DNA from: a virus
UHGV virus genome: UHGV-1976995
Direction: 5' to 3' (one strand)
DNA: 34,204 bases
Of this stretch, positions 15,688-34,204 are shown piece after piece. Each line of letters starts with the position of its first letter. Positions within the stretch are counted from its first letter, which is position 1. The notes below the pieces were generated by a model. That model was not told where the DNA came from. It made no database searches and worked only from the letters and a program-made list of their open reading frames with translations. Both the position numbers and the translations under genes were made by a program.

Positions 15688-16147
15688 TCAACGTAAGGCG
15701 TTCCTCGATATGCTGGCGTGGTCAGAGGGAACTGATAACGGACGTCAGAAAACCAGAAATCATGGTTATGACGTCATTGTTGGCGGAGAGCTATTCACTG
15801 ATTACTCCGATCACCCTCGCAAACTTGTCACGCTAAACCCCAAACTCAAATCAACAGCAGCCGGACGTTACCAGCTTCTTTTCCGTTGGTGGGATGCCTA
15901 TCGTAAGCAGCTTGGCCTGAAAGACTTCTCTCCCAAAAGCCAGGACGCTGTGGCATTGCAGCAGATTAAAGAGCGTGGCGCTTTACCGATGATTGATCGC
16001 GGTGATATTCGTCAGGCTATCGACCGTTGCAGCAATATCTGGGCTTCACTTCCGGGGGCTGGTTACGGTCAGTTTGAGCATAAGGCTGATAGCCTGATTG
16101 CAAAATTCAAAGAAGCAGGCGGAACGGTCAGAGAGATTGAGGTATGA
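15671..16147 (+). CDS. R: endolysin, lambda R type lytic transglycosylase
   Basis: 158 aa, near-identical to lambda R from memory; overlaps the holin stop. Confidence 0.9.
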
Positions 16148-16581
16148 GCAGAGTCACCGCGATTATCTCCGCTCTGGTTATCTGCATCATCGTCAGCCTG
16201 TCATGGGCTGTTAATCATTACCGTGATAACGCCATGACCTACAAAGAGCAGCGCGATAAGGCCACATCCACAATCGCTGACATGCAGAAGCGTCAACGTG
16301 ATGTAGCAGAACTTGACGCCAGATACACAAAGGAGCTTGCTGATGCTAACGCGACTATCGAAAGCCTCCGTGCTGATGTTTCTGCTGGGCGTAAGCGCCT
16401 GCAAGTCGCCGCCACCTGTGCAAAGTCAACGACCGGAGCCAGCGGCATGGGCGATGGAGAAAGCCCAAGACTTACAGCAGATGCTGAACTCAATTATTAC
16501 CGTCTCAGAAGTGGAATCGACAGGATAACCGCGCAGGTTAACTACCTGCAGGAATACATCAGGACGCAATGCCTTCGATGA
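16144..16581 (+). CDS. Rz: i-spanin Rz
   Basis: N-terminal transmembrane helix then coiled-coil; N-terminal 30 aa match lambda Rz, the remainder diverges. Confidence 0.8.
16343..16528 (+). CDS. Rz1: o-spanin Rz1 (lipoprotein) embedded in the +1 frame of Rz
   Basis: ATG at 16343 with an AGGAG RBS; signal peptide with lipobox VSAC followed by a Pro-rich segment. Confidence 0.6.
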
Positions 16582-28358: not shown

Positions 28359-29663
28359 ATGGCTACGTGGCAACAGGGTATTAATTCTGGTGGTTTTCTG
28401 GCTGGCATCGGTACGCAAAATGAGAATGCGCCAAAGGCAAACGACATTAACGCAACGCTTGGTCTGATCCGCGAAAACAATGAACTGGCTCGCTCAGGTG
28501 CAAATAACGTTGGTCTGACCGCGTTACGTGGTCTGGCTGGAGTTGCTGATATTTATAAGCAGGAACAGCAACAGAAAGCGATTAATGCGTTCAATAAGGT
28601 TCATGCTGATGCATGGGCTTCTGGTGATCCATCGGGACTATTTAAGTTTGCCAAGGAAAATCCAGCGTTTGTTGCGCAGGCACAACAGGCGTTTTCCGGT
28701 CTTAATGATCAGCAACGCAACGATATGGGCGATTTAGCCATGAGGGCTAACGTCGCTCTTTCTCAGGGACCGGAAGCCTACAGTAAATTCATTACTGACA
28801 ACAAGGACAGGTTAAATCGCGTGGGGGCGAATGCTGACTGGATGATTCAGACAGGTATCCAGAATCCAGAGCAGCTATCACACATGCTGACTACTATGTC
28901 TCTCGGTGCACTTGGACCAGAAAAGGCGTTTGCTGTTCAGGATAAGATGGTTGGTCGTGAGATTGACCGAGGCCAGCTGGCAGAGACAATCCGCAGCAAT
29001 CAGGCAGGAGAAGCACTAACAGCTCGAGGTCAGGACATCCAGATACGTGGACAGAACATCAGCGCACAGAATGCTGCTCTTTCCCGAGAAATACAAAGAG
29101 CAGAATTACAAGAAAAGGCTCTGGACAGACAGATAGCCAGAGAAAGCAATCAGTTAAAGCTTGAAGAGCTAAAACAGAAACAGGCAGATGTTCGGCAAAA
29201 GGCTGACATAGCCCGCGCTGACAGGCAGGCCGCCGCTCAGGGTGCAGTTGATACGTTCAGCACCGCGCTTGATTCTCTCAACGAGATAGAGCAAAGCCCC
29301 GGCCTTTCAAAAGCAGTAGGAATTCGCTCAGCGTTTCCGACAGTTCCTGGCTCTGATGCGGCTAACTTTGAAGCAAGGCTCGACACCTTTAAAGCTCAAA
29401 CATTCCTTCCTATGGTGCAGTCCCTGAAGGGTATGGGCGCTCTTTCAGATGCAGAGGGTAAAAAATTATCCGATGCGGTTGGTGCCCTAAGCCCCAAAAT
29501 GAGTGAAAAGGCTTTTCGTGACTCTATCGGAAAGATTAGAAATCAGCTTGAAAGCAAGTTGAGCACTGTTAAAAAACAGTTTGATTATCAGGAGCCGGTG
29601 CAGAATATGCCAGGGCAACAATCTACTACTGGCAGTAACTTTTCTTCGCTATGGGGTGATTAA
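28359..29663 (+). CDS. ejection protein (P22 gp20-like)
   Basis: 434 aa, helical and Gln-rich; AAGGGG RBS; synteny. Confidence 0.7.
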
Positions 29664-31660
29664 TGGCTAAAGCATGGAAAGATGTTATCGCCTCTCCACA
29701 GTATCAGGCGTTAGCACCAGAACAAAAAGCGCAGGCTCAGGAGCAATACTTCAATGAAGTCGTTGCCCCGCAAGCCGGAGAAAATGCAGAGCAGGCTAAG
29801 CAAGCTTTCTATGCTGCCTATCCATTGCCATCTGTGCAGCCAGTGGAGACACAACAACCAGTATCACAGCAACAACCACAGCAAAGTGGATTTATGTCGG
29901 ATCTTGGTGAAGCCGTGAAAGAAACTGGTCGCGGACTGGTGCAGGCTGGCGTGAACGTGGCAAACATACCTGCATCAGTTGCCGATGCTGTAACAAGCGC
30001 GGCGGCATGGGCTGGCGGTAAACTCGGCATTGGCGATGGTACATATCAACCAGCGCCACGAGTAACAACGCAGGGGTTAGAGCAGGACTTTGGCCTTCAG
30101 CAAGGCGCGCTCACTCCACAAACGACAGAGGGAAGGGTATTTGCTGAAGCATTGCCTTACCTCACTCCTGCTGGCGTTGAGAGAGCGGCAGCACAGGCAC
30201 CAACACTTGCTGGTCGAATTGCTCAGGGGGCAACTCGCCTTCTAGCAGAAAACGCAGTTGGATCACTTGCTGCAAATAGTGCGAAAGATGATGCGGAAGC
30301 ACTCGCCACCGATTTAGGCGTTGGCGTTCTGGCTGGCGGTGCTATTAACGCTGCCGGACGTGGATTAGGTGCTGCTTATCGTGGCGTTCGTGGTGCTATT
30401 GCGCCAGAAGCGCAGCAGGCTATCAGATTTGCAGAGCGTGAAGGAGTTCCTCTGCACACCACAGACCTGTTACAGCCTACTTCCCGCGTCGGAAAAATGG
30501 CGCAAACGACAGCAGAAAATATCCCCCTGGCTGGCACAAGCGGAATGAGAGCAACGCAACAGGAAGCGAGAAGCCAGTTGGTTCAGAGATTTGCTGATAA
30601 ATTCGGTGAGTATGATCCAGCGGTTGTTATTGACAGCCTTAAAGCGAAAACATCAGGAATTCGTCGTGCCGCCGGTAATCGACTGGAGCAGGTTCAGAAT
30701 GCTATGGCGGGAATAAACATTCAGCCTGCAAGAGCAATTCAGCAGATTGATACAGAAATATCTAACCTGCAGAAGCTTGGTAAGGTTGCTGATAACGAGA
30801 CTATTTCAAAACTTCAGTCCTATCGTGATGAGCTTGTTCGCAATGCTGGTCCTGATGGTCCGGTAAATCTGGATTTGAAGCAATTAAGCGATCTGCGCAG
30901 CCAGTTCAGAATGGATGTGAAGGGTGAGCGACCAGTGTTACCAAACCGTTCCGATGCTGCCATTCAGCGCGTTTACAAGGCAATGACCGACGATATCAAT
31001 GGTGCCATTGGTCAGAATCTTGGCAACGATACTCTCCGTAAATATCAGCAGGCCAATGCCGTCTACGCTGACGAAGCGGCGAAACTAAAGAATACCAGGC
31101 TGAAGAATGTTCTCATGAAAGGCGACCTGACGCCGGAAGTTGTCAACAACATGCTATTCAGCAAGAACAAATCGGAAATTAAGACGCTGTATAACTCAGT
31201 TGGTCGTGTTGGCAGGGCGCAAATGCGCAATGGCATCATTGGAAAGGCGATGGAGAAATCAGGTGGTTCCCCTGATCAGTTCCTTCGACAGCTTAACATC
31301 CTGCAAAACCAGACTGGCATCACATTTAAGGGGCAGGACGCTGCTTATCTGAAAGGATTGAAAAACTACCTGCAATCCACGCAGCAGGCTGCAAAAGCGG
31401 CAGTAACAACACCAACAGGGCAGCAAACCATCCCGTTCATTATCGGGTATGGGACAGCAATGAACCCGGCGACAACTGGCGCAGCGGTAAGCTACGGACT
31501 TCTTACTCGCGCCTATGAGAGCGAACCATTCAGAAATGCAATGCTCCGAATGGCAAACACACCACGCGGATCGACAGCGTTTGAGAAAGCCATGCAGCAA
31601 GCGCAAAAAGCGATTAATGCACTGACGCAGGGTGCTAAGTCTGATTCGTTGTCAGAATAG
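29663..31660 (+). CDS. ejection protein (P22 gp16-like)
   Basis: 665 aa; ATGA-type overlap with the gp20-like stop; synteny. Confidence 0.7.
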   Translation: MAKAWKDVIASPQYQALAPEQKAQAQEQYFNEVVAPQAGENAEQAKQAFYAAYPLPSVQPVETQQPVSQQQPQQSGFMSDLGEAVKETGRGLVQAGVNVANIPASVADAVTSAAAWAGGKLGIGDGTYQPAPRVTTQGLEQDFGLQQGALTPQTTEGRVFAEALPYLTPAGVERAAAQAPTLAGRIAQGATRLLAENAVGSLAANSAKDDAEALATDLGVGVLAGGAINAAGRGLGAAYRGVRGAIAPEAQQAIRFAEREGVPLHTTDLLQPTSRVGKMAQTTAENIPLAGTSGMRATQQEARSQLVQRFADKFGEYDPAVVIDSLKAKTSGIRRAAGNRLEQVQNAMAGINIQPARAIQQIDTEISNLQKLGKVADNETISKLQSYRDELVRNAGPDGPVNLDLKQLSDLRSQFRMDVKGERPVLPNRSDAAIQRVYKAMTDDINGAIGQNLGNDTLRKYQQANAVYADEAAKLKNTRLKNVLMKGDLTPEVVNNMLFSKNKSEIKTLYNSVGRVGRAQMRNGIIGKAMEKSGGSPDQFLRQLNILQNQTGITFKGQDAAYLKGLKNYLQSTQQAAKAAVTTPTGQQTIPFIIGYGTAMNPATTGAAVSYGLLTRAYESEPFRNAMLRMANTPRGSTAFEKAMQQAQKAINALTQGAKSDSLSE

Positions 31661-31750
31661 CCTTTCAAACACCAGGAACGTGCAAAAACCAAATATGTAG
31701 AACGCGAGGTTTATCGTATTCCTCTGCATAGGCGATACCTTTGCTGATTG

Positions 31751-32236
31751 TTATCTGATGTTACTGCTACTGTTGCATGTTACCGTGTTTCCAAATCCTG
31801 AATTGCAGTTTGTATATGTGTCAACGCGTGTTGGGTAAGGTTGAGTTATAACAGGCTGGCGCGCTTTTTGCTCGATCGCTTGCATTGTGTTTACAGCCTG
31901 ATAATTCAATAAAGCCTGCTGGAATGCTTGGCTTTGTGCTATTTGTTGGGCTTGTTCTTGGCTTTGTAATTGAACATAAAGATTCTGAAGCTCAAGTCTT
32001 GCCTGTGCGTCACTTATCTTGCCTTCATCGACACCTTGCCCGAGCATCTTTGCAGCAAGGACATACAGCTTAGGTGTTGGTGCTGATGCCATGCGTGAGT
32101 CGTTCTTCACACTGGCATCAAGGCAATTAGCCATATCGCTAAGCTTTTGATAGCGTTGTTCGCAACTTGCTTGATAGTCACTTACTTTTGCGCACCCAGC
32201 CAGCAGAAGCGGGATAATTAACAGTGATTTTTTCAT
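31751..32236 (-). CDS. lipoprotein, cargo gene, candidate superinfection-exclusion factor
   Basis: Track ORF 31751..32287 trimmed to MKKSLLIIPLLLAGC (signal peptide with lipobox LAGC); opposite strand to the flanking structural genes; Gln-rich helical middle and Cys-containing C-terminus. Confidence 0.6.
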   Translation of the reverse strand: MKKSLLIIPLLLAGCAKVSDYQASCEQRYQKLSDMANCLDASVKNDSRMASAPTPKLYVLAAKMLGQGVDEGKISDAQARLELQNLYVQLQSQEQAQQIAQSQAFQQALLNYQAVNTMQAIEQKARQPVITQPYPTRVDTYTNCNSGFGNTVTCNSSSNIR

Positions 32237-32270
32237 ATAATTAACTCTCCTTAGTTTTGCGCAGGATACC

Positions 32271-32636
32271 ATGAAAAAAGTTAACATTGGAAACGTACCA
32301 AAGATGCTCGTTCCGCTCTTTGAGAGCGGTACAATTGTGTTTTGTAGAGACTTTCCAGAATGGCAACGCCTGCATCAAAAACTTGGCGTTGACGTGCATG
32401 ACTCGGACGCCAACGGAGCGTCTCATACAATGAGTAGCGAGAATGGTGTTTTGCATGTGATAGGCGTGTTCAATGGCAAACTATCTACTATTGCCCATGA
32501 GTGCGCTCACATGGCATTCGATATCTGCTCAAGGGTAGGTGTTGATGTTGAACCAGGAAGAGCCAACGAGACTTACTGCTACTTAATGAGCAGGCTTGTT
32601 GAGTTCTGCGAGCGACATATCAAAAAGCCGGAGTGA
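32271..32636 (+). CDS. small HExxH-motif protein (putative metallopeptidase-like), cargo gene
   Basis: 121 aa with HECAH at residues 86 to 90 of the track translation; no strong RBS at either candidate start. Confidence 0.5.
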   Translation: MKKVNIGNVPKMLVPLFESGTIVFCRDFPEWQRLHQKLGVDVHDSDANGASHTMSSENGVLHVIGVFNGKLSTIAHECAHMAFDICSRVGVDVEPGRANETYCYLMSRLVEFCERHIKKPE

Positions 32637-32649: not shown

Positions 32650-32829
32650 TTACTTTTTGCTGTCTGGAGTTCGCTTATCCAATACCCAGCCATGACCTGG
32701 CTTTGTTGTTGGTGGAAGCCTTTCGTTGTCCTTGACGGTTGCAAAATTGTCTTTCTTACCGCCGCGTGGGCCAACTTCTTGGTATATTCCGCCGTTTTTT
32801 CCTGTGTTTTCACCTGGTTTTTTCGCCAT
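32650..32829 (-). CDS. YjzC-like small protein (59 aa), cargo gene
   Basis: Track ORF trimmed to the ATG at 32829 behind GAGGT; pattern GENTGKNGGIYQEVGPRGG...ERLPPTTKPGHGW resembles the YjzC-like family as I remember it. Confidence 0.45.
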   Translation of the reverse strand: MAKKPGENTGKNGGIYQEVGPRGGKKDNFATVKDNERLPPTTKPGHGWVLDKRTPDSKK

Positions 32830-32859
32830 GATATACCTCAACATACACCCGTTATTGGG

Positions 32860-32919: not shown

Positions 32920-32944
32920 AACCCACCTTCAGGTGGGTTTTTTG
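32920..32944. terminator. hairpin overlapping the mnt stop codon; terminator-like in both orientations
   Basis: AACCCACC-TTCA-GGTGGGTT followed by TTTTTTG on the plus strand and AATTTTTGCATTT on the minus strand. Confidence 0.5.
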
Positions 32945-33180
32945 TACAAATCCTTCAGCGTATCAAACACCATCTTCTTAACAAGTTCAGACTGCTCATC
33001 AGCGATGCGTTCCGCATCGTCTCGATAGCCTGAAATTTTGGATGGCTTTGATACAGCATCAGTCACTATCTGAACTAATTCTGAATTAAGAGAGCGGCCA
33101 TTGGATTTGGCTCGCTGTTTTAGTTTTTCCTTTAATTCGTAAGGTAGCCGCAGATTAAATTGCGGGTCATCTCTTCCCAT
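32929..33180 (-). CDS. mnt: Mnt repressor (Arc/MetJ ribbon-helix-helix family)
   Basis: MGRDDPQFNLRLPYELKEKLKQRAKSNGRSLNSELVQIV...DDAERIADEQSELVKKMVFDTLKDLYKK matches P22 Mnt closely from memory. Confidence 0.85.
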   Translation of the reverse strand: MGRDDPQFNLRLPYELKEKLKQRAKSNGRSLNSELVQIVTDAVSKPSKISGYRDDAERIADEQSELVKKMVFDTLKDLYKKPT

Positions 33181-33243
33181 TCTTGATGCCTCGCTTTTGT
33201 GAGTGGATCGGCATCTTATTATCTGCTGGTTGCATCCTCAATA

Positions 33244-33258
33244 AGACCACAGTGGTCT
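33244..33258. promoter_or_regulatory. candidate Mnt operator: 15-bp perfect dyad AGACCAC-A-GTGGTCT
   Basis: Perfect inverted repeat between mnt and the tailspike gene, next to a candidate leftward promoter TTGAGG-N17-TAAGAT; analogous in form to the P22 Mnt operator. Confidence 0.5.
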
Positions 33259-33326
33259 CTTTGTTTGATTAATAATGCATCACTGTGGCAATGCTGCGGC
33301 GATTCCTTGTATCTGGAGCAAATTAA

Positions 33327-34204
33327 ATGACAGACATTACAGCCAATGTTGTAGTGAGTATGCCTTCGCAACTCTTCACTATGGCGCGTTCTTTTAAAGC
33401 CGTAGCCAATGGCAAAATTTATATCGGTAAAATTGACACTGACCCGGTAAATCCTGAAAACCAGATTCAGGTTTATGTAGAGAACGAAGACGGTTCTCAC
33501 GTTCCTGTTTCGCAACCAATCATCATTAACGCTGCTGGATATCCGGTATATAACGGACAGATTGCCAAATTCGTAACCGTGCAAGGCCATTCTATGGTTG
33601 TTTACGATGCTTATGGCACTCAGCAGTTTTATTTTCCAAATGTATTAAAATACGATCCAGATCAGTTTGGCCCAGACTTCAAAGAGCAGTTATCTCAATC
33701 AGGAGCATACATTAATGATGATTCAAAAGGTGATGCATTAATTGGGGTAAGGCAGCCATTTACCGGGGCTGTAACTATAACTCAGCATGAAAACAATGCT
33801 CTTTTCTTAAATGTAAAACAATTTGGAGCAATTGGGGATGGGAAATATCATCCATTATCTGAGTGGTTTTCTTCAATTTCTGAAGCAAAATCCTTATATC
33901 CTTTTGTTGACTCATTATCTCAGTCAATAGACTGGGCCGCGTGGCAAGCTGCCCTTAACACAGGAAAGGTTATTTATGGTACTGATAATGCGTATGTAAT
34001 AACGGATACGTTAACACCTGTTTCTGGTGGTGGGATAATTGGTCTTGGTGTGGGCAAATGGGTCTCTGGATATACTGCAACATTTGCTCCTGATATTACC
34101 ACAGGGACCACATTCCTGATGTACGGTGTAGGAAATAAAAAATATACTGTAGATTGTGTTTCTAATATGGATGTTAGTGGTGGTGTGGTTTCTAATCCAT
34201 CTTC
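33327..34204 (+). CDS. tailspike protein, 5' partial (P22 gp9-type head-binding domain plus a different receptor-binding domain)
   Basis: Hand-translated open frame from the ATG at 33327 (absent from the track because it has no stop in the window); first about 110 aa ([11 protein letters not shown]...[12 protein letters not shown]...VLKYDPDQ) match the P22 gp9 head-binding domain; downstream sequence is unrelated to the P22 endorhamnosidase. Confidence 0.85.

What the first reader, a model, noticed from the sequence alone, without database searches (positions are those of the whole stretch)
31751..32236. Opposite-strand lipoprotein gene in the sieA position
The product has a signal peptide with lipobox LAGC, a Gln-rich helical middle and a Cys-containing C-terminal region. 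It sits where P22 encodes SieA but is a lipoprotein rather than an inner-membrane protein. Lipoproteins encoded by lambdoid morons (Cor, Llp, Bor) typically block receptor use or modify the envelope.
Basis: partly seen in the sequence, partly recalled or inferred. Interest (0 to 1): 0.6.

Follow-up and report, generated by a model that had tools for sequence, protein, structure and literature searches.

The report
Prophage lipoprotein replacing P22 sieA
A P22-like prophage of E. coli carries, in the slot and behind the promoter where phage P22 keeps its superinfection-exclusion gene sieA, a conserved and lysogen-expressed gene for an outer-membrane-anchored periplasmic lipoprotein of an uncharacterised family, which most likely protects the lysogen's envelope against incoming phages, though this has not been tested.

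Summary
Window 31751-32236 (-) encodes a 161-aa protein with a canonical lipoprotein signal (LAGC, Cys15, +2 Ala), a compact helical domain, a roughly 50-residue Gln-rich helix and a C-terminal hairpin containing two Cys.

It is a one-gene cassette. The DNA is identical to P22 and HK620 through the annotated PsieA promoter and the AAGGAG ribosome site. It then diverges where P22 has sieA and HK620 has hkcB. The other junction lies at the stop codon.

The gene is under strong purifying selection (dN/dS 0.04-0.08). It is present in 186 of 5426 complete E. coli genomes. In every P22-like locus examined it lies convergent with gene 16, whatever the gene 16 type. It never co-occurs with sieA or hkcB, and it usually lies downstream of mnt on the same strand.

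Published RNA-seq of the LF82 prophage Gally shows the ortholog transcribed in lysogens. It belongs to PHROG 6067 (unknown function). That family extends to about 256 clusters across metagenomes, often on mobile elements. It shows no homology to SieA or Cor, and no Pfam family (which would include Bor and TraT) matched; no specific fold match was found.

The best reading is a prophage-expressed envelope exclusion factor, but the function is inferred. I rate it a new variant of a known kind, of moderate interest.

The parts
31751..32236 (-). Lipoprotein CDS (161 aa plus stop); PHROG 6067
32192..32236 (-). Signal peptide (residues 1-14) with lipobox LAGC and the lipid-modified Cys15 codon (32194-32192); the +2 residue is Ala
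   Evidence: 78 of 78 homologs have a lipobox; the +2 residue is A in 72, V in 4 and T in 2, never D.
31937..32191 (-). Conserved N-terminal helical domain (residues 16-100) with invariant Q22, C25, C38 and A79
   Evidence: AF2 pLDDT 95-98 in this region.
31856..31987 (-). Gln-rich part (residues 84-127, 34% Gln) of a predicted continuous helix spanning residues 76-125. This stalk is absent or short in the roughly 128-aa relatives.
31763..31819 (-). C-terminal beta-hairpin (residues 140-158) with conserved Cys144 and Cys154
32245..32252 (-). Shine-Dalgarno sequence AAGGAGAG, 8 nt before the ATG. The upstream cassette junction with P22 and HK620 lies just after AAGGAG.
32270..32300 (-). Equivalent of the annotated P22 PsieA promoter (AF527608 13861..13891), identical in sequence here
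31661..31750 (.). 90-bp spacer to the convergent gene 16; no intrinsic terminator predicted
29663..31660 (+). Gene 16-type ejection protein (665 aa), convergent neighbour
32271..32636 (+). hkcC-like ORF (121 aa, PHROG 1365), divergent neighbour that overlaps the promoter region
32650..32844 (-). orf59a/HkcD-like ORF
32929..33180 (-). mnt (Arc plus Repressor_Mnt domains), upstream on the same strand as the lipoprotein gene
33327..34204 (+). Tailspike gene, 5' part (P22-type head-binding domain); runs off the window

Best explanation
The gene encodes a Sec/Lgt/LspA-processed lipoprotein that the Lol pathway sends to the inner leaflet of the outer membrane. From there a conserved helical domain, a Gln-rich helical stalk and a hairpin containing two conserved Cys project into the periplasm. 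It is a self-contained moron cassette that replaces sieA (P22) or hkcB (HK620) behind the same promoter and ribosome-binding site. It is transcribed from the prophage while the late genes are silent. Its most likely job is superinfection exclusion at the envelope. It would do this by interfering, from the outer-membrane side of the periplasm, with genome delivery by incoming phages. The primary targets would be P22-like phages, whose gp7/gp20/gp16 ejection proteins must build a trans-periplasmic conduit. Shown here: gene reality, lipobox, cassette boundaries, shared promoter, lysogen transcription of the ortholog, and linkage to P22-like prophages. Inferred: lipidation, outer-membrane location, disulfides, oligomeric stalk, and the exclusion function with its target.
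For: Lipobox and +2 rule.
Four further conserved Cys, fitting an oxidising periplasm.
The DNA is identical to P22 and HK620 through the annotated PsieA and AAGGAG, then diverges. The 3' junction is at the stop codon.
In 13 loci from 8 genera and in 80 IMG/VR loci, the gene lies between a gene 16 homolog (convergent, 20-97 bp away) and the tailspike.
A protein that is at least 98% identical sits next to gene 16 types that are only 34% identical to each other.
0 of 80 loci also carry SieA or HkcB.
In 74 of 80 loci mnt is upstream on the same strand, with tight operons mnt -> (small envelope protein) -> lipoprotein.
LF82 Gally ortholog (98% aa identity): 70 versus a background of 15.6 normalised reads in LB. 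Its log2fpkm is 7.9-10.3 in the other conditions, versus 3-4 for structural genes (PMC9928086 tables S1/S4).
Both characterised occupants of this slot are exclusion factors: SieA (PMC10883804) and the BTP1 STnc6030 RNA (PMC7067206).
Distant family members sit on a satellite-like integrative element, in phage contigs, next to ThsB-TIR/SLATT genes, and convergent with a polyvalent MuF_C protein.
dN/dS is 0.04-0.08.
Against: No functional test exists for any member. There was no match in PADLOC, Pfam or NCBIfam and no informative fold match. Slot sharing could reflect only a recombination hot spot for any moron; other envelope proteins of unknown role share the region. Strong purifying selection and near-identity across prophages is not the pattern expected for a protein in an arms race with the highly variable gp16 and gp20. 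Two distant relatives lie in ordinary chromosomal neighbourhoods. Misson et al. did not score the Gally ortholog as a moron in LB; it was 4.5-fold above background against a 5-fold cut-off.
Confidence: 0.45

Rival explanations
1. Host-fitness or virulence conversion factor, of the kind represented by lambda Bor or plasmid TraT. In this reading the lipoprotein alters envelope properties (serum, macrophage or stress survival) rather than phage entry.
For: The Gally ortholog is up 2.55 log2-fold in macrophages (q = 4.7e-27) and also higher in the B1/B6 non-macrophage samples than in overnight LB. The gene is present in pathogenic lineages, including O104:H4 2011C-3493 and an ST131 strain. Very strong purifying selection suggests a conserved host partner. 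Some distant relatives lie in ordinary chromosomal contexts.
Against: There is no homology to Bor or TraT. The close family is confined to P22-like prophages at one slot across at least 8 genera with very different lifestyles, including Pectobacterium, Tatumella and Proteus. All five rightmost Gally genes, including the tailspike, rise in macrophages, so the induction is not specific to this gene.
Confidence: 0.2
2. Cor/Llp-type receptor masking. In this reading the lipoprotein binds the periplasmic face of an outer-membrane protein (for example OmpA, OmpC or a TonB-dependent transporter) and inactivates it as a receptor for heterologous phages.
For: It shares the cellular address and size class of known Gram-negative exclusion lipoproteins. 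A conserved host protein as target would explain the low dN/dS. Faint PHROG Cor hits were seen.
Against: The Cor similarity covers only the signal peptide (residues 1-31, E = 0.03). The architecture is different: a helical domain plus stalk plus hairpin, about twice the size of the 78-position Cor profile. Cor-type morons, from my own knowledge, occur in lambdoid siphophages that themselves use FhuA. This family instead tracks P22-like podophages, which adsorb to O-antigen.
Confidence: 0.15
3. A function in the phage's own cycle. Examples would be preventing progeny from ejecting DNA into the lysing or induced mother cell and its debris, or modulating lysis or the envelope during induction.
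For: sieA itself is reported to be up-regulated on induction (PMC10883804). The gene sits at the end of the virion gene cluster.
Against: It is transcribed opposite to the late operon and is expressed in uninduced lysogens. The o-spanin role is already filled by Rz/Rz1 in the lysis cassette at 16144-16581 and 16313-16528. Many P22-like phages lack the gene: only about 186 of about 1250 E. coli genomes with a gp7 homolog carry it.
Confidence: 0.1

Closest known systems
P22 SieA (inner-membrane superinfection exclusion protein; types A-C)
   Same: It occupies the same genomic slot between gene 16 and the tailspike. It has the same upstream DNA, including the annotated PsieA promoter and AAGGAG site. 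It is prophage-expressed, confined to P22-like prophages of Enterobacterales, about 160 aa, and envelope-located.
   Different: There is no sequence similarity (BLASTP found nothing at E<=100). SieA has 3-4 transmembrane helices and a cytoplasmic FxRYPxEAxxFNK motif. This protein has a cleavable lipoprotein signal, no transmembrane helix, and should sit on the outer membrane facing the periplasm.
Cor (phi80/N15/HK022) and Llp (T5) exclusion lipoproteins
   Same: These are phage-encoded outer-membrane lipoproteins that protect the cell from superinfection (from my own knowledge of these families).
   Different: They are not homologous: the PHROG 1119 hit covers only the signal peptide. The Cor profile has 78 positions, about half the size of this protein. 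They target FhuA-dependent phages and are not linked to P22-like ejection genes.
Ltp of Streptococcus phage TP-J34
   Same: It is a prophage lipoprotein that blocks DNA injection by binding a component of the incoming phage's delivery apparatus, the tape measure (cited in PMC10883804 ref. 9; PMC3952083). It is the closest mechanistic analogy to what is proposed here.
   Different: It comes from a Gram-positive host, is surface-exposed on the cytoplasmic membrane, and no sequence similarity was detected in any library search.
HK620 HkcB
   Same: It is an alternative cassette at the identical junctions behind the same promoter and Shine-Dalgarno site. It is also membrane-anchored with a helical, coiled-coil-like ectodomain.
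   Different: It has an N-terminal transmembrane anchor instead of a lipid anchor, is 109 aa, and shows no similarity. Its function is also unknown.
Lambda Bor / plasmid TraT
   Same: These are mobile-element-encoded outer-membrane lipoproteins expressed in the carrier state.
   Different: No Pfam match was found. They have a different fold class, and their documented role is serum resistance or surface exclusion.
Braun lipoprotein Lpp
   Different: The match is a generic single helix among hundreds of coiled coils. Lpp has no N-terminal globular domain and no Cys hairpin. This protein has no C-terminal Lys for peptidoglycan linkage; its C-terminus is R or Y.

Membership tests
Bacterial lipoproteins (Lgt/LspA substrates; PROSITE PS51257-type signal) | Positively charged n-region, uncharged h-region, lipobox [LVI][ASTVI][GAS]C, with the Cys within the first ~35 residues | tested here: met
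   MKKSLLIIPLLLAGC matches. The regular expression matches this protein and 78 of 78 full-length homologs.
Bacterial lipoproteins (Lgt/LspA substrates; PROSITE PS51257-type signal) | Actual diacylglyceryl modification and signal peptidase II cleavage | not testable with these tools
   Needs globomycin sensitivity, palmitate labelling or mass spectrometry.
Outer-membrane-sorted lipoproteins (Lol pathway, +2 rule of Enterobacterales) | No Asp at position +2 after the lipid Cys | tested here: met
   The +2 residue is Ala here. Across homologs it is A in 72, V in 4 and T in 2, never D. Localisation itself was not tested.
SieA family | Sequence homology to SieA types A-C, including the FxRYPxEAxxFNK motif | tested here: not met
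   BLASTP found no alignment at E<=100. The motif is absent from the sequence. Motif taken from PMC10883804.
SieA family | Polytopic inner-membrane protein with 3-4 transmembrane helices | tested here: not met
   The only hydrophobic segment is the cleavable signal peptide. The rest is polar and helical.
SieA family | Location between genes 16 and 9 of a P22-like prophage, expressed from the prophage | tested here: met
Cor superinfection exclusion proteins (PHROG 1119) | Profile match over the mature protein | tested here: not met
   E=0.03, and only residues 1-31 (the signal peptide) are aligned.
Bor (Lambda_Bor), TraT and any other Pfam-defined lipoprotein family | Pfam profile match | tested here: not met
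   The only Pfam hit at E<=1 is DUF2802, E=0.36, below its cut-off.
o-spanin (Rz1) | Short Pro-rich lipoprotein gene embedded in or adjacent to the i-spanin gene in the lysis cassette, on the late transcript | tested here: not met
   Rz is at 16144-16581, with Rz1 embedded at 16313-16528. This gene is 15 kb away on the opposite strand.
PHROG 6067 (unknown function) | Full-length profile match | tested here: met
   E=2.8e-110, residues 1-161 aligned to profile positions 1-161 of 161. Distant relatives also hit only this PHROG.
Known anti-phage defence systems (PADLOC-DB 2.0) | Match to any model | tested here: not met
   0 families at E<=1.

The most novel reading that the evidence does not exclude
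The protein is the founding member of a widespread, uncharacterised family of lipoproteins borne on mobile elements (PHROG 6067; about 256 clusters at 50% identity across Proteobacteria-type metagenomes). In this reading the family blocks phage genome delivery from the outer-membrane side of the periplasm. It would use a conserved helical head, a stalk of adjustable length and a Cys-containing hairpin to jam or mis-assemble the ejection-protein conduit, or its outer-membrane exit. That would be a second, non-homologous solution to the problem SieA solves at the inner membrane.
Probability: 0.3. Interest if true: 0.7.

Novelty: new variant of a known kind. Interest (0 to 1): 0.5.

Why it matters
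Only about a third of P22-like phages carry sieA (PMC10883804), and what the others put in that slot has not been described. This cassette fills the slot in about 15% of E. coli genomes that have a P22-like gp7 gene (186 of about 1250), including O104:H4 and ST131 strains.

If it excludes phages, it would be a new protein family for envelope-level defence in Gram-negative bacteria. It would also be a handle on the poorly understood outer-membrane and periplasmic steps of podophage DNA delivery, and a factor to consider when choosing therapeutic phages against lysogens.

If it instead affects host physiology, as its up-regulation in macrophages might suggest, it would be an unrecognised lysogenic-conversion gene in pathogenic E. 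coli.

Either way, the experiment is simple. It needs one 486-bp gene, its native promoter, and existing phage panels and hybrids.

Tried and rejected
- **Family libraries.** Pfam, NCBIfam and PADLOC scans of the protein, and Pfam and NCBIfam scans of 10 distant relatives, gave nothing above threshold.
- **Solved structures.** A profile search of PDB sequences returned only chance hits, E>1.
- **Fold searches.**
  - Foldseek against BFVD found nothing at E<=0.001.
  - The afdb50 library was unavailable.
- **Spanin role.** Rejected, because Rz/Rz1 are present elsewhere in the window.
- **Lysozyme or transglycosylase inhibitor.** I considered this because PGAP labels the neighbouring gp16 'lytic transglycosylase domain-containing'. 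Pfam finds no such domain in gp16. The same lipoprotein also sits beside gp16 types that are not so labelled. I dropped the idea.
- **Linkage to a particular gp16 or gp20 type.** Rejected.
- **Longer ORF from 32287.** Rejected.
- **Collection scans.** Pattern scans of viral contigs with the diverse alignments A3 and A4 failed for lack of conserved stretches. The genome-contig scan returned only 5 loci.
- **Other searches.** Rfam found nothing in the window. Literature searches for accession numbers or the PHROG id found nothing. The LF82 CRISPRi gut screen does not mention this gene.

Full report
**What is there**

The window is a P22-like (Lederbergvirus) prophage. It is 100% identical over the region examined to the chromosome of E. 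coli CH10508.

On the minus strand, 31751-32236 encodes a 161-aa protein. It is preceded by AAGGAGAG 8 nt upstream of the ATG. A longer ORF from 32287 is listed mechanically. However, every homolog begins at MKK, and the extension is not conserved where the upstream DNA differs, as in Gally.

The N-terminus MKKSLLIIPLLLAGC satisfies the PROSITE-type lipoprotein rule. So do 78 of 78 full-length homologs. The residue after the lipid Cys is A (72), V (4) or T (2), never Asp. By the established Lol-avoidance rule of Enterobacterales, this predicts outer-membrane sorting.

Of the 78 homologs, 75 keep four further Cys: C25, C38, C144 and C154. These are conserved even in relatives of 25-40% identity. 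That fits two disulfides in the periplasm, but this is an inference.

Orthologs with dS of 0.09-0.62 have dN/dS of 0.04-0.08. This is a real, constrained protein-coding gene.

**Structure**

A 29-sequence alignment of close homologs gave a mediocre AF2 model (pLDDT 64). A 60-sequence alignment that included distant relatives gave pLDDT 91 and pTM 0.66. The model has four parts:
- short helices at 18-28, 32-45, 47-50 and 53-70, forming a compact domain;
- one continuous helix at 76-125, whose second half is 34% Gln;
- a Pro-containing linker;
- a beta-hairpin at 140-158 that carries C144 and C154.

Shorter relatives of about 128 aa keep the head domain and the hairpin but have only a 15-20-residue linker. 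The Gln-rich stalk is therefore an insertion of variable length.

**The slot**

Megablast shows two blocks. Window 31400-32260 matches phages Gally, vB_EcoP-720R6 and VSe13. The sequence from 32243 onward matches HK620, P22 and many Salmonella P22-like phages at 98%.

Annotated records show that P22 has sieA, and HK620 has hkcB, exactly between gene 16 and this conserved block. A four-way alignment shows the window is identical to P22 and HK620 from hkcC through the region annotated as PsieA in AF527608 (which maps to window 32270-32300) and up to AAGGAG. After that the three sequences diverge.

At the other end, E. coli hits that carry a different gene 16 begin to match at window 31752, the stop codon.

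The lipoprotein gene is therefore a precise one-gene cassette that shares promoter and ribosome-binding site with sieA. It has no similarity to SieA or HkcB. All three are membrane-anchored: SieA is polytopic, and HkcB has an N-terminal transmembrane helix plus a coiled-coil-like region.

**Distribution and linkage**

The close family has 94 cluster representatives, all in Enterobacterales: Escherichia, Salmonella, Citrobacter, Serratia, Cronobacter, Klebsiella aerogenes, Yersinia, Pectobacterium, Morganella, Providencia, Proteus and Tatumella. It is PHROG 6067, of unknown function.

In all 13 loci with enough flank, and in 77 of 80 IMG/VR loci, a gene 16 homolog lies convergent 20-97 bp downstream. 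In 78 of 80, a P22-type tailspike head-binding domain lies upstream.

Proteins at least 98% identical sit beside at least three gene 16 types: 36 of the 665-aa type, 24 of a 614-aa type that is only 34% identical, and 16 that are HK620-like. Their gp20 neighbours are 44-50% identical. The cassette is therefore not tied to a particular ejection-protein allele.

None of the 80 loci also encodes SieA or HkcB.

The gene is in 186 of 5426 complete E. coli genomes. A gp7 homolog is in about 1250. Carriers include O104:H4 2011C-3493 and an ST131 isolate. RefSeq calls it 'hypothetical protein' or 'lipoprotein'.

**Expression**

In 74 of 80 loci, mnt is upstream on the same strand. Several arrangements occur:
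- In about half of the loci, the arrangement is an mnt-like gene, then an 81-aa two-transmembrane protein, then the lipoprotein, with overlapping or 4-nt junctions.
- O104:H4 has mnt, then a 104-aa secreted protein, then the lipoprotein.
- Proteus phage Brookers and a Yersinia prophage have mnt followed by the lipoprotein with 15-17-bp gaps.

From established P22 biology, mnt is a lysogen-expressed gene.

There is also direct evidence. In LF82, the Gally ortholog (LF82_138 / GALLYPH_13, 98% identical) gives 70 normalised reads in overnight LB. The prophage median is 15.6, and the neighbouring gene 16 gives 13.7. This is just under the authors' 5-fold moron cut-off of 78. In the other conditions its log2(fpkm+5) is 7.9-10.3, versus about 3-4 for structural genes. 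It is up 2.55 log2-fold in macrophages (PMC9928086 tables S1 and S4).

One caveat applies: Gally has different upstream DNA from this window. Transcription from the PsieA-type promoter here is therefore inferred from sequence identity with P22. No intrinsic terminator follows the gene.

**A wider family**

A profile search of 1.84 billion representatives found 256 clusters at E<=0.001. Most are proteins of 125-180 aa with the same plan: a lipobox, QxxCE, a second Cys, KLYxLKA, DARxELQ, and a C-terminal TxC...G...C. They match only PHROG 6067 and no Pfam or NCBIfam model.

I could read eight contexts:
- two ordinary chromosomal neighbourhoods;
- one beside ThsB-TIR, SLATT and QueC genes;
- one phage contig with a small terminase;
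- one as cargo of an integrase-AlpA-primase element next to a T5orf172 protein;
- one convergent with a 4839-aa polyvalent MuF_C protein;
- one in an integrase/DnaB/LPD37 element.

The sample is small, but it leans towards mobile elements and conflict loci.

**Interpretation**

The following points are shown:
- the gene is a lipoprotein gene by sequence criteria;
- it is a cassette in the sieA slot behind the sieA promoter;
- its close ortholog is expressed in lysogens;
- it is strictly associated with the ejection-gene/tailspike junction of P22-like prophages;
- it is mutually exclusive with sieA.

The function is inferred. SieA blocks DNA injection and its escape mutations map to gp16 and gp20 (PMC10883804). 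In BTP1 the same junction encodes an exclusion RNA (PMC7067206). I therefore think the most likely role is envelope-level superinfection exclusion, acting from the outer-membrane side of the periplasm on the incoming conduit. I put this at about 0.45.

Three things argue for caution. First, selection is very strongly purifying, although gp16 and gp20 are hypervariable. This would fit better with a conserved target such as gp7, the tail tip or a host envelope protein. Second, other envelope morons of unknown role occupy the same region. Third, there is the macrophage induction.

The rivals are host-fitness conversion (0.2), Cor/Llp-type receptor masking (0.15) and a role in the phage's own cycle (0.1).

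**Comparison with known systems and novelty**

The protein works most like SieA in slot, regulation and phage group. It may work like Ltp, a lipoprotein that blocks injection. It has the cellular address of Cor and Llp. It is a member of none of these families. The SieA membership tests for homology and topology failed, and so did the profile tests for Cor and for all Pfam families (which would include Bor and TraT).

The family itself is already catalogued (PHROG 6067) but uncharacterised. I found no paper that mentions it.

I rate it a new variant of a known kind, namely a prophage-encoded envelope moron or exclusion factor. Interest is moderate (0.5), because it is readily testable and frequent in clinically relevant E. 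coli.

Noticed in passing
window 32271-32636 (+): The hkcC-like ORF (121 aa, PHROG 1365, unknown function) contains an HExxH motif (IAHECAHM), which suggests a small metallopeptidase-like protein. Its start codon overlaps the PsieA-equivalent promoter of the divergent lipoprotein gene.
   Followed up: partly
window 32929-33327: The immI region is reduced to mnt alone. There is no arc, ant or sar. The tailspike ATG (33327) follows mnt by about 147 bp, as in Gally. This raises the question of what Mnt represses here.
   Followed up: no
L001 3972-4391 (Gally GALLYPH_14): In Gally, the divergent neighbour of the lipoprotein gene is a second, unrelated lipoprotein (MKRIIGVVAGAILLSGC..., 139 aa). 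In non-LB samples of LF82 lysogens its expression is even higher, with log2fpkm up to 11.
   Followed up: partly
L024 5889-6134: In about half of 80 IMG/VR E. coli prophage loci, an 81-aa protein with two predicted transmembrane segments sits between an mnt-like gene and the lipoprotein gene, with overlapping junctions. It may be a functional partner in a two-component envelope system.
   Followed up: partly
window 31661-31750: No intrinsic terminator is predicted between the lipoprotein gene and the convergent gene 16. Read-through would give RNA antisense to the 3' end of gene 16. This recalls the BTP1 exclusion RNA STnc6030, which maps to the same junction.
   Followed up: partly
L104 212-589 and 590-9589: A distant family member (P0120) lies convergent and directly adjacent to a 4839-aa polyvalent protein (ddrB-ParB, Eco57I, helicase, MuF_C). 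Such proteins are presumably packaged and injected, so this echoes the adjacency to gene 16.
   Followed up: no
window 16144-16581 and 16313-16528: A canonical Rz gene with an embedded Rz1 lipoprotein (LGVSAC lipobox, Pro-rich) is present in the lysis cassette.
   Followed up: yes
P0093: A 167-aa E. coli protein labelled 'recombinase' (ERF domain PF04404) matches profile positions 1-54 of the lipoprotein. It is possibly a chimeric or mis-called ORF.
   Followed up: no
L016 5511-5825 (O104:H4 2011C-3493): In the O104:H4 outbreak strain, the lipoprotein gene is preceded in the mnt operon by a 104-aa protein with a cleavable-looking signal peptide (MKRIAILLILFFSTIVFA...). It is another uncharacterised periplasmic moron.
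   Followed up: no
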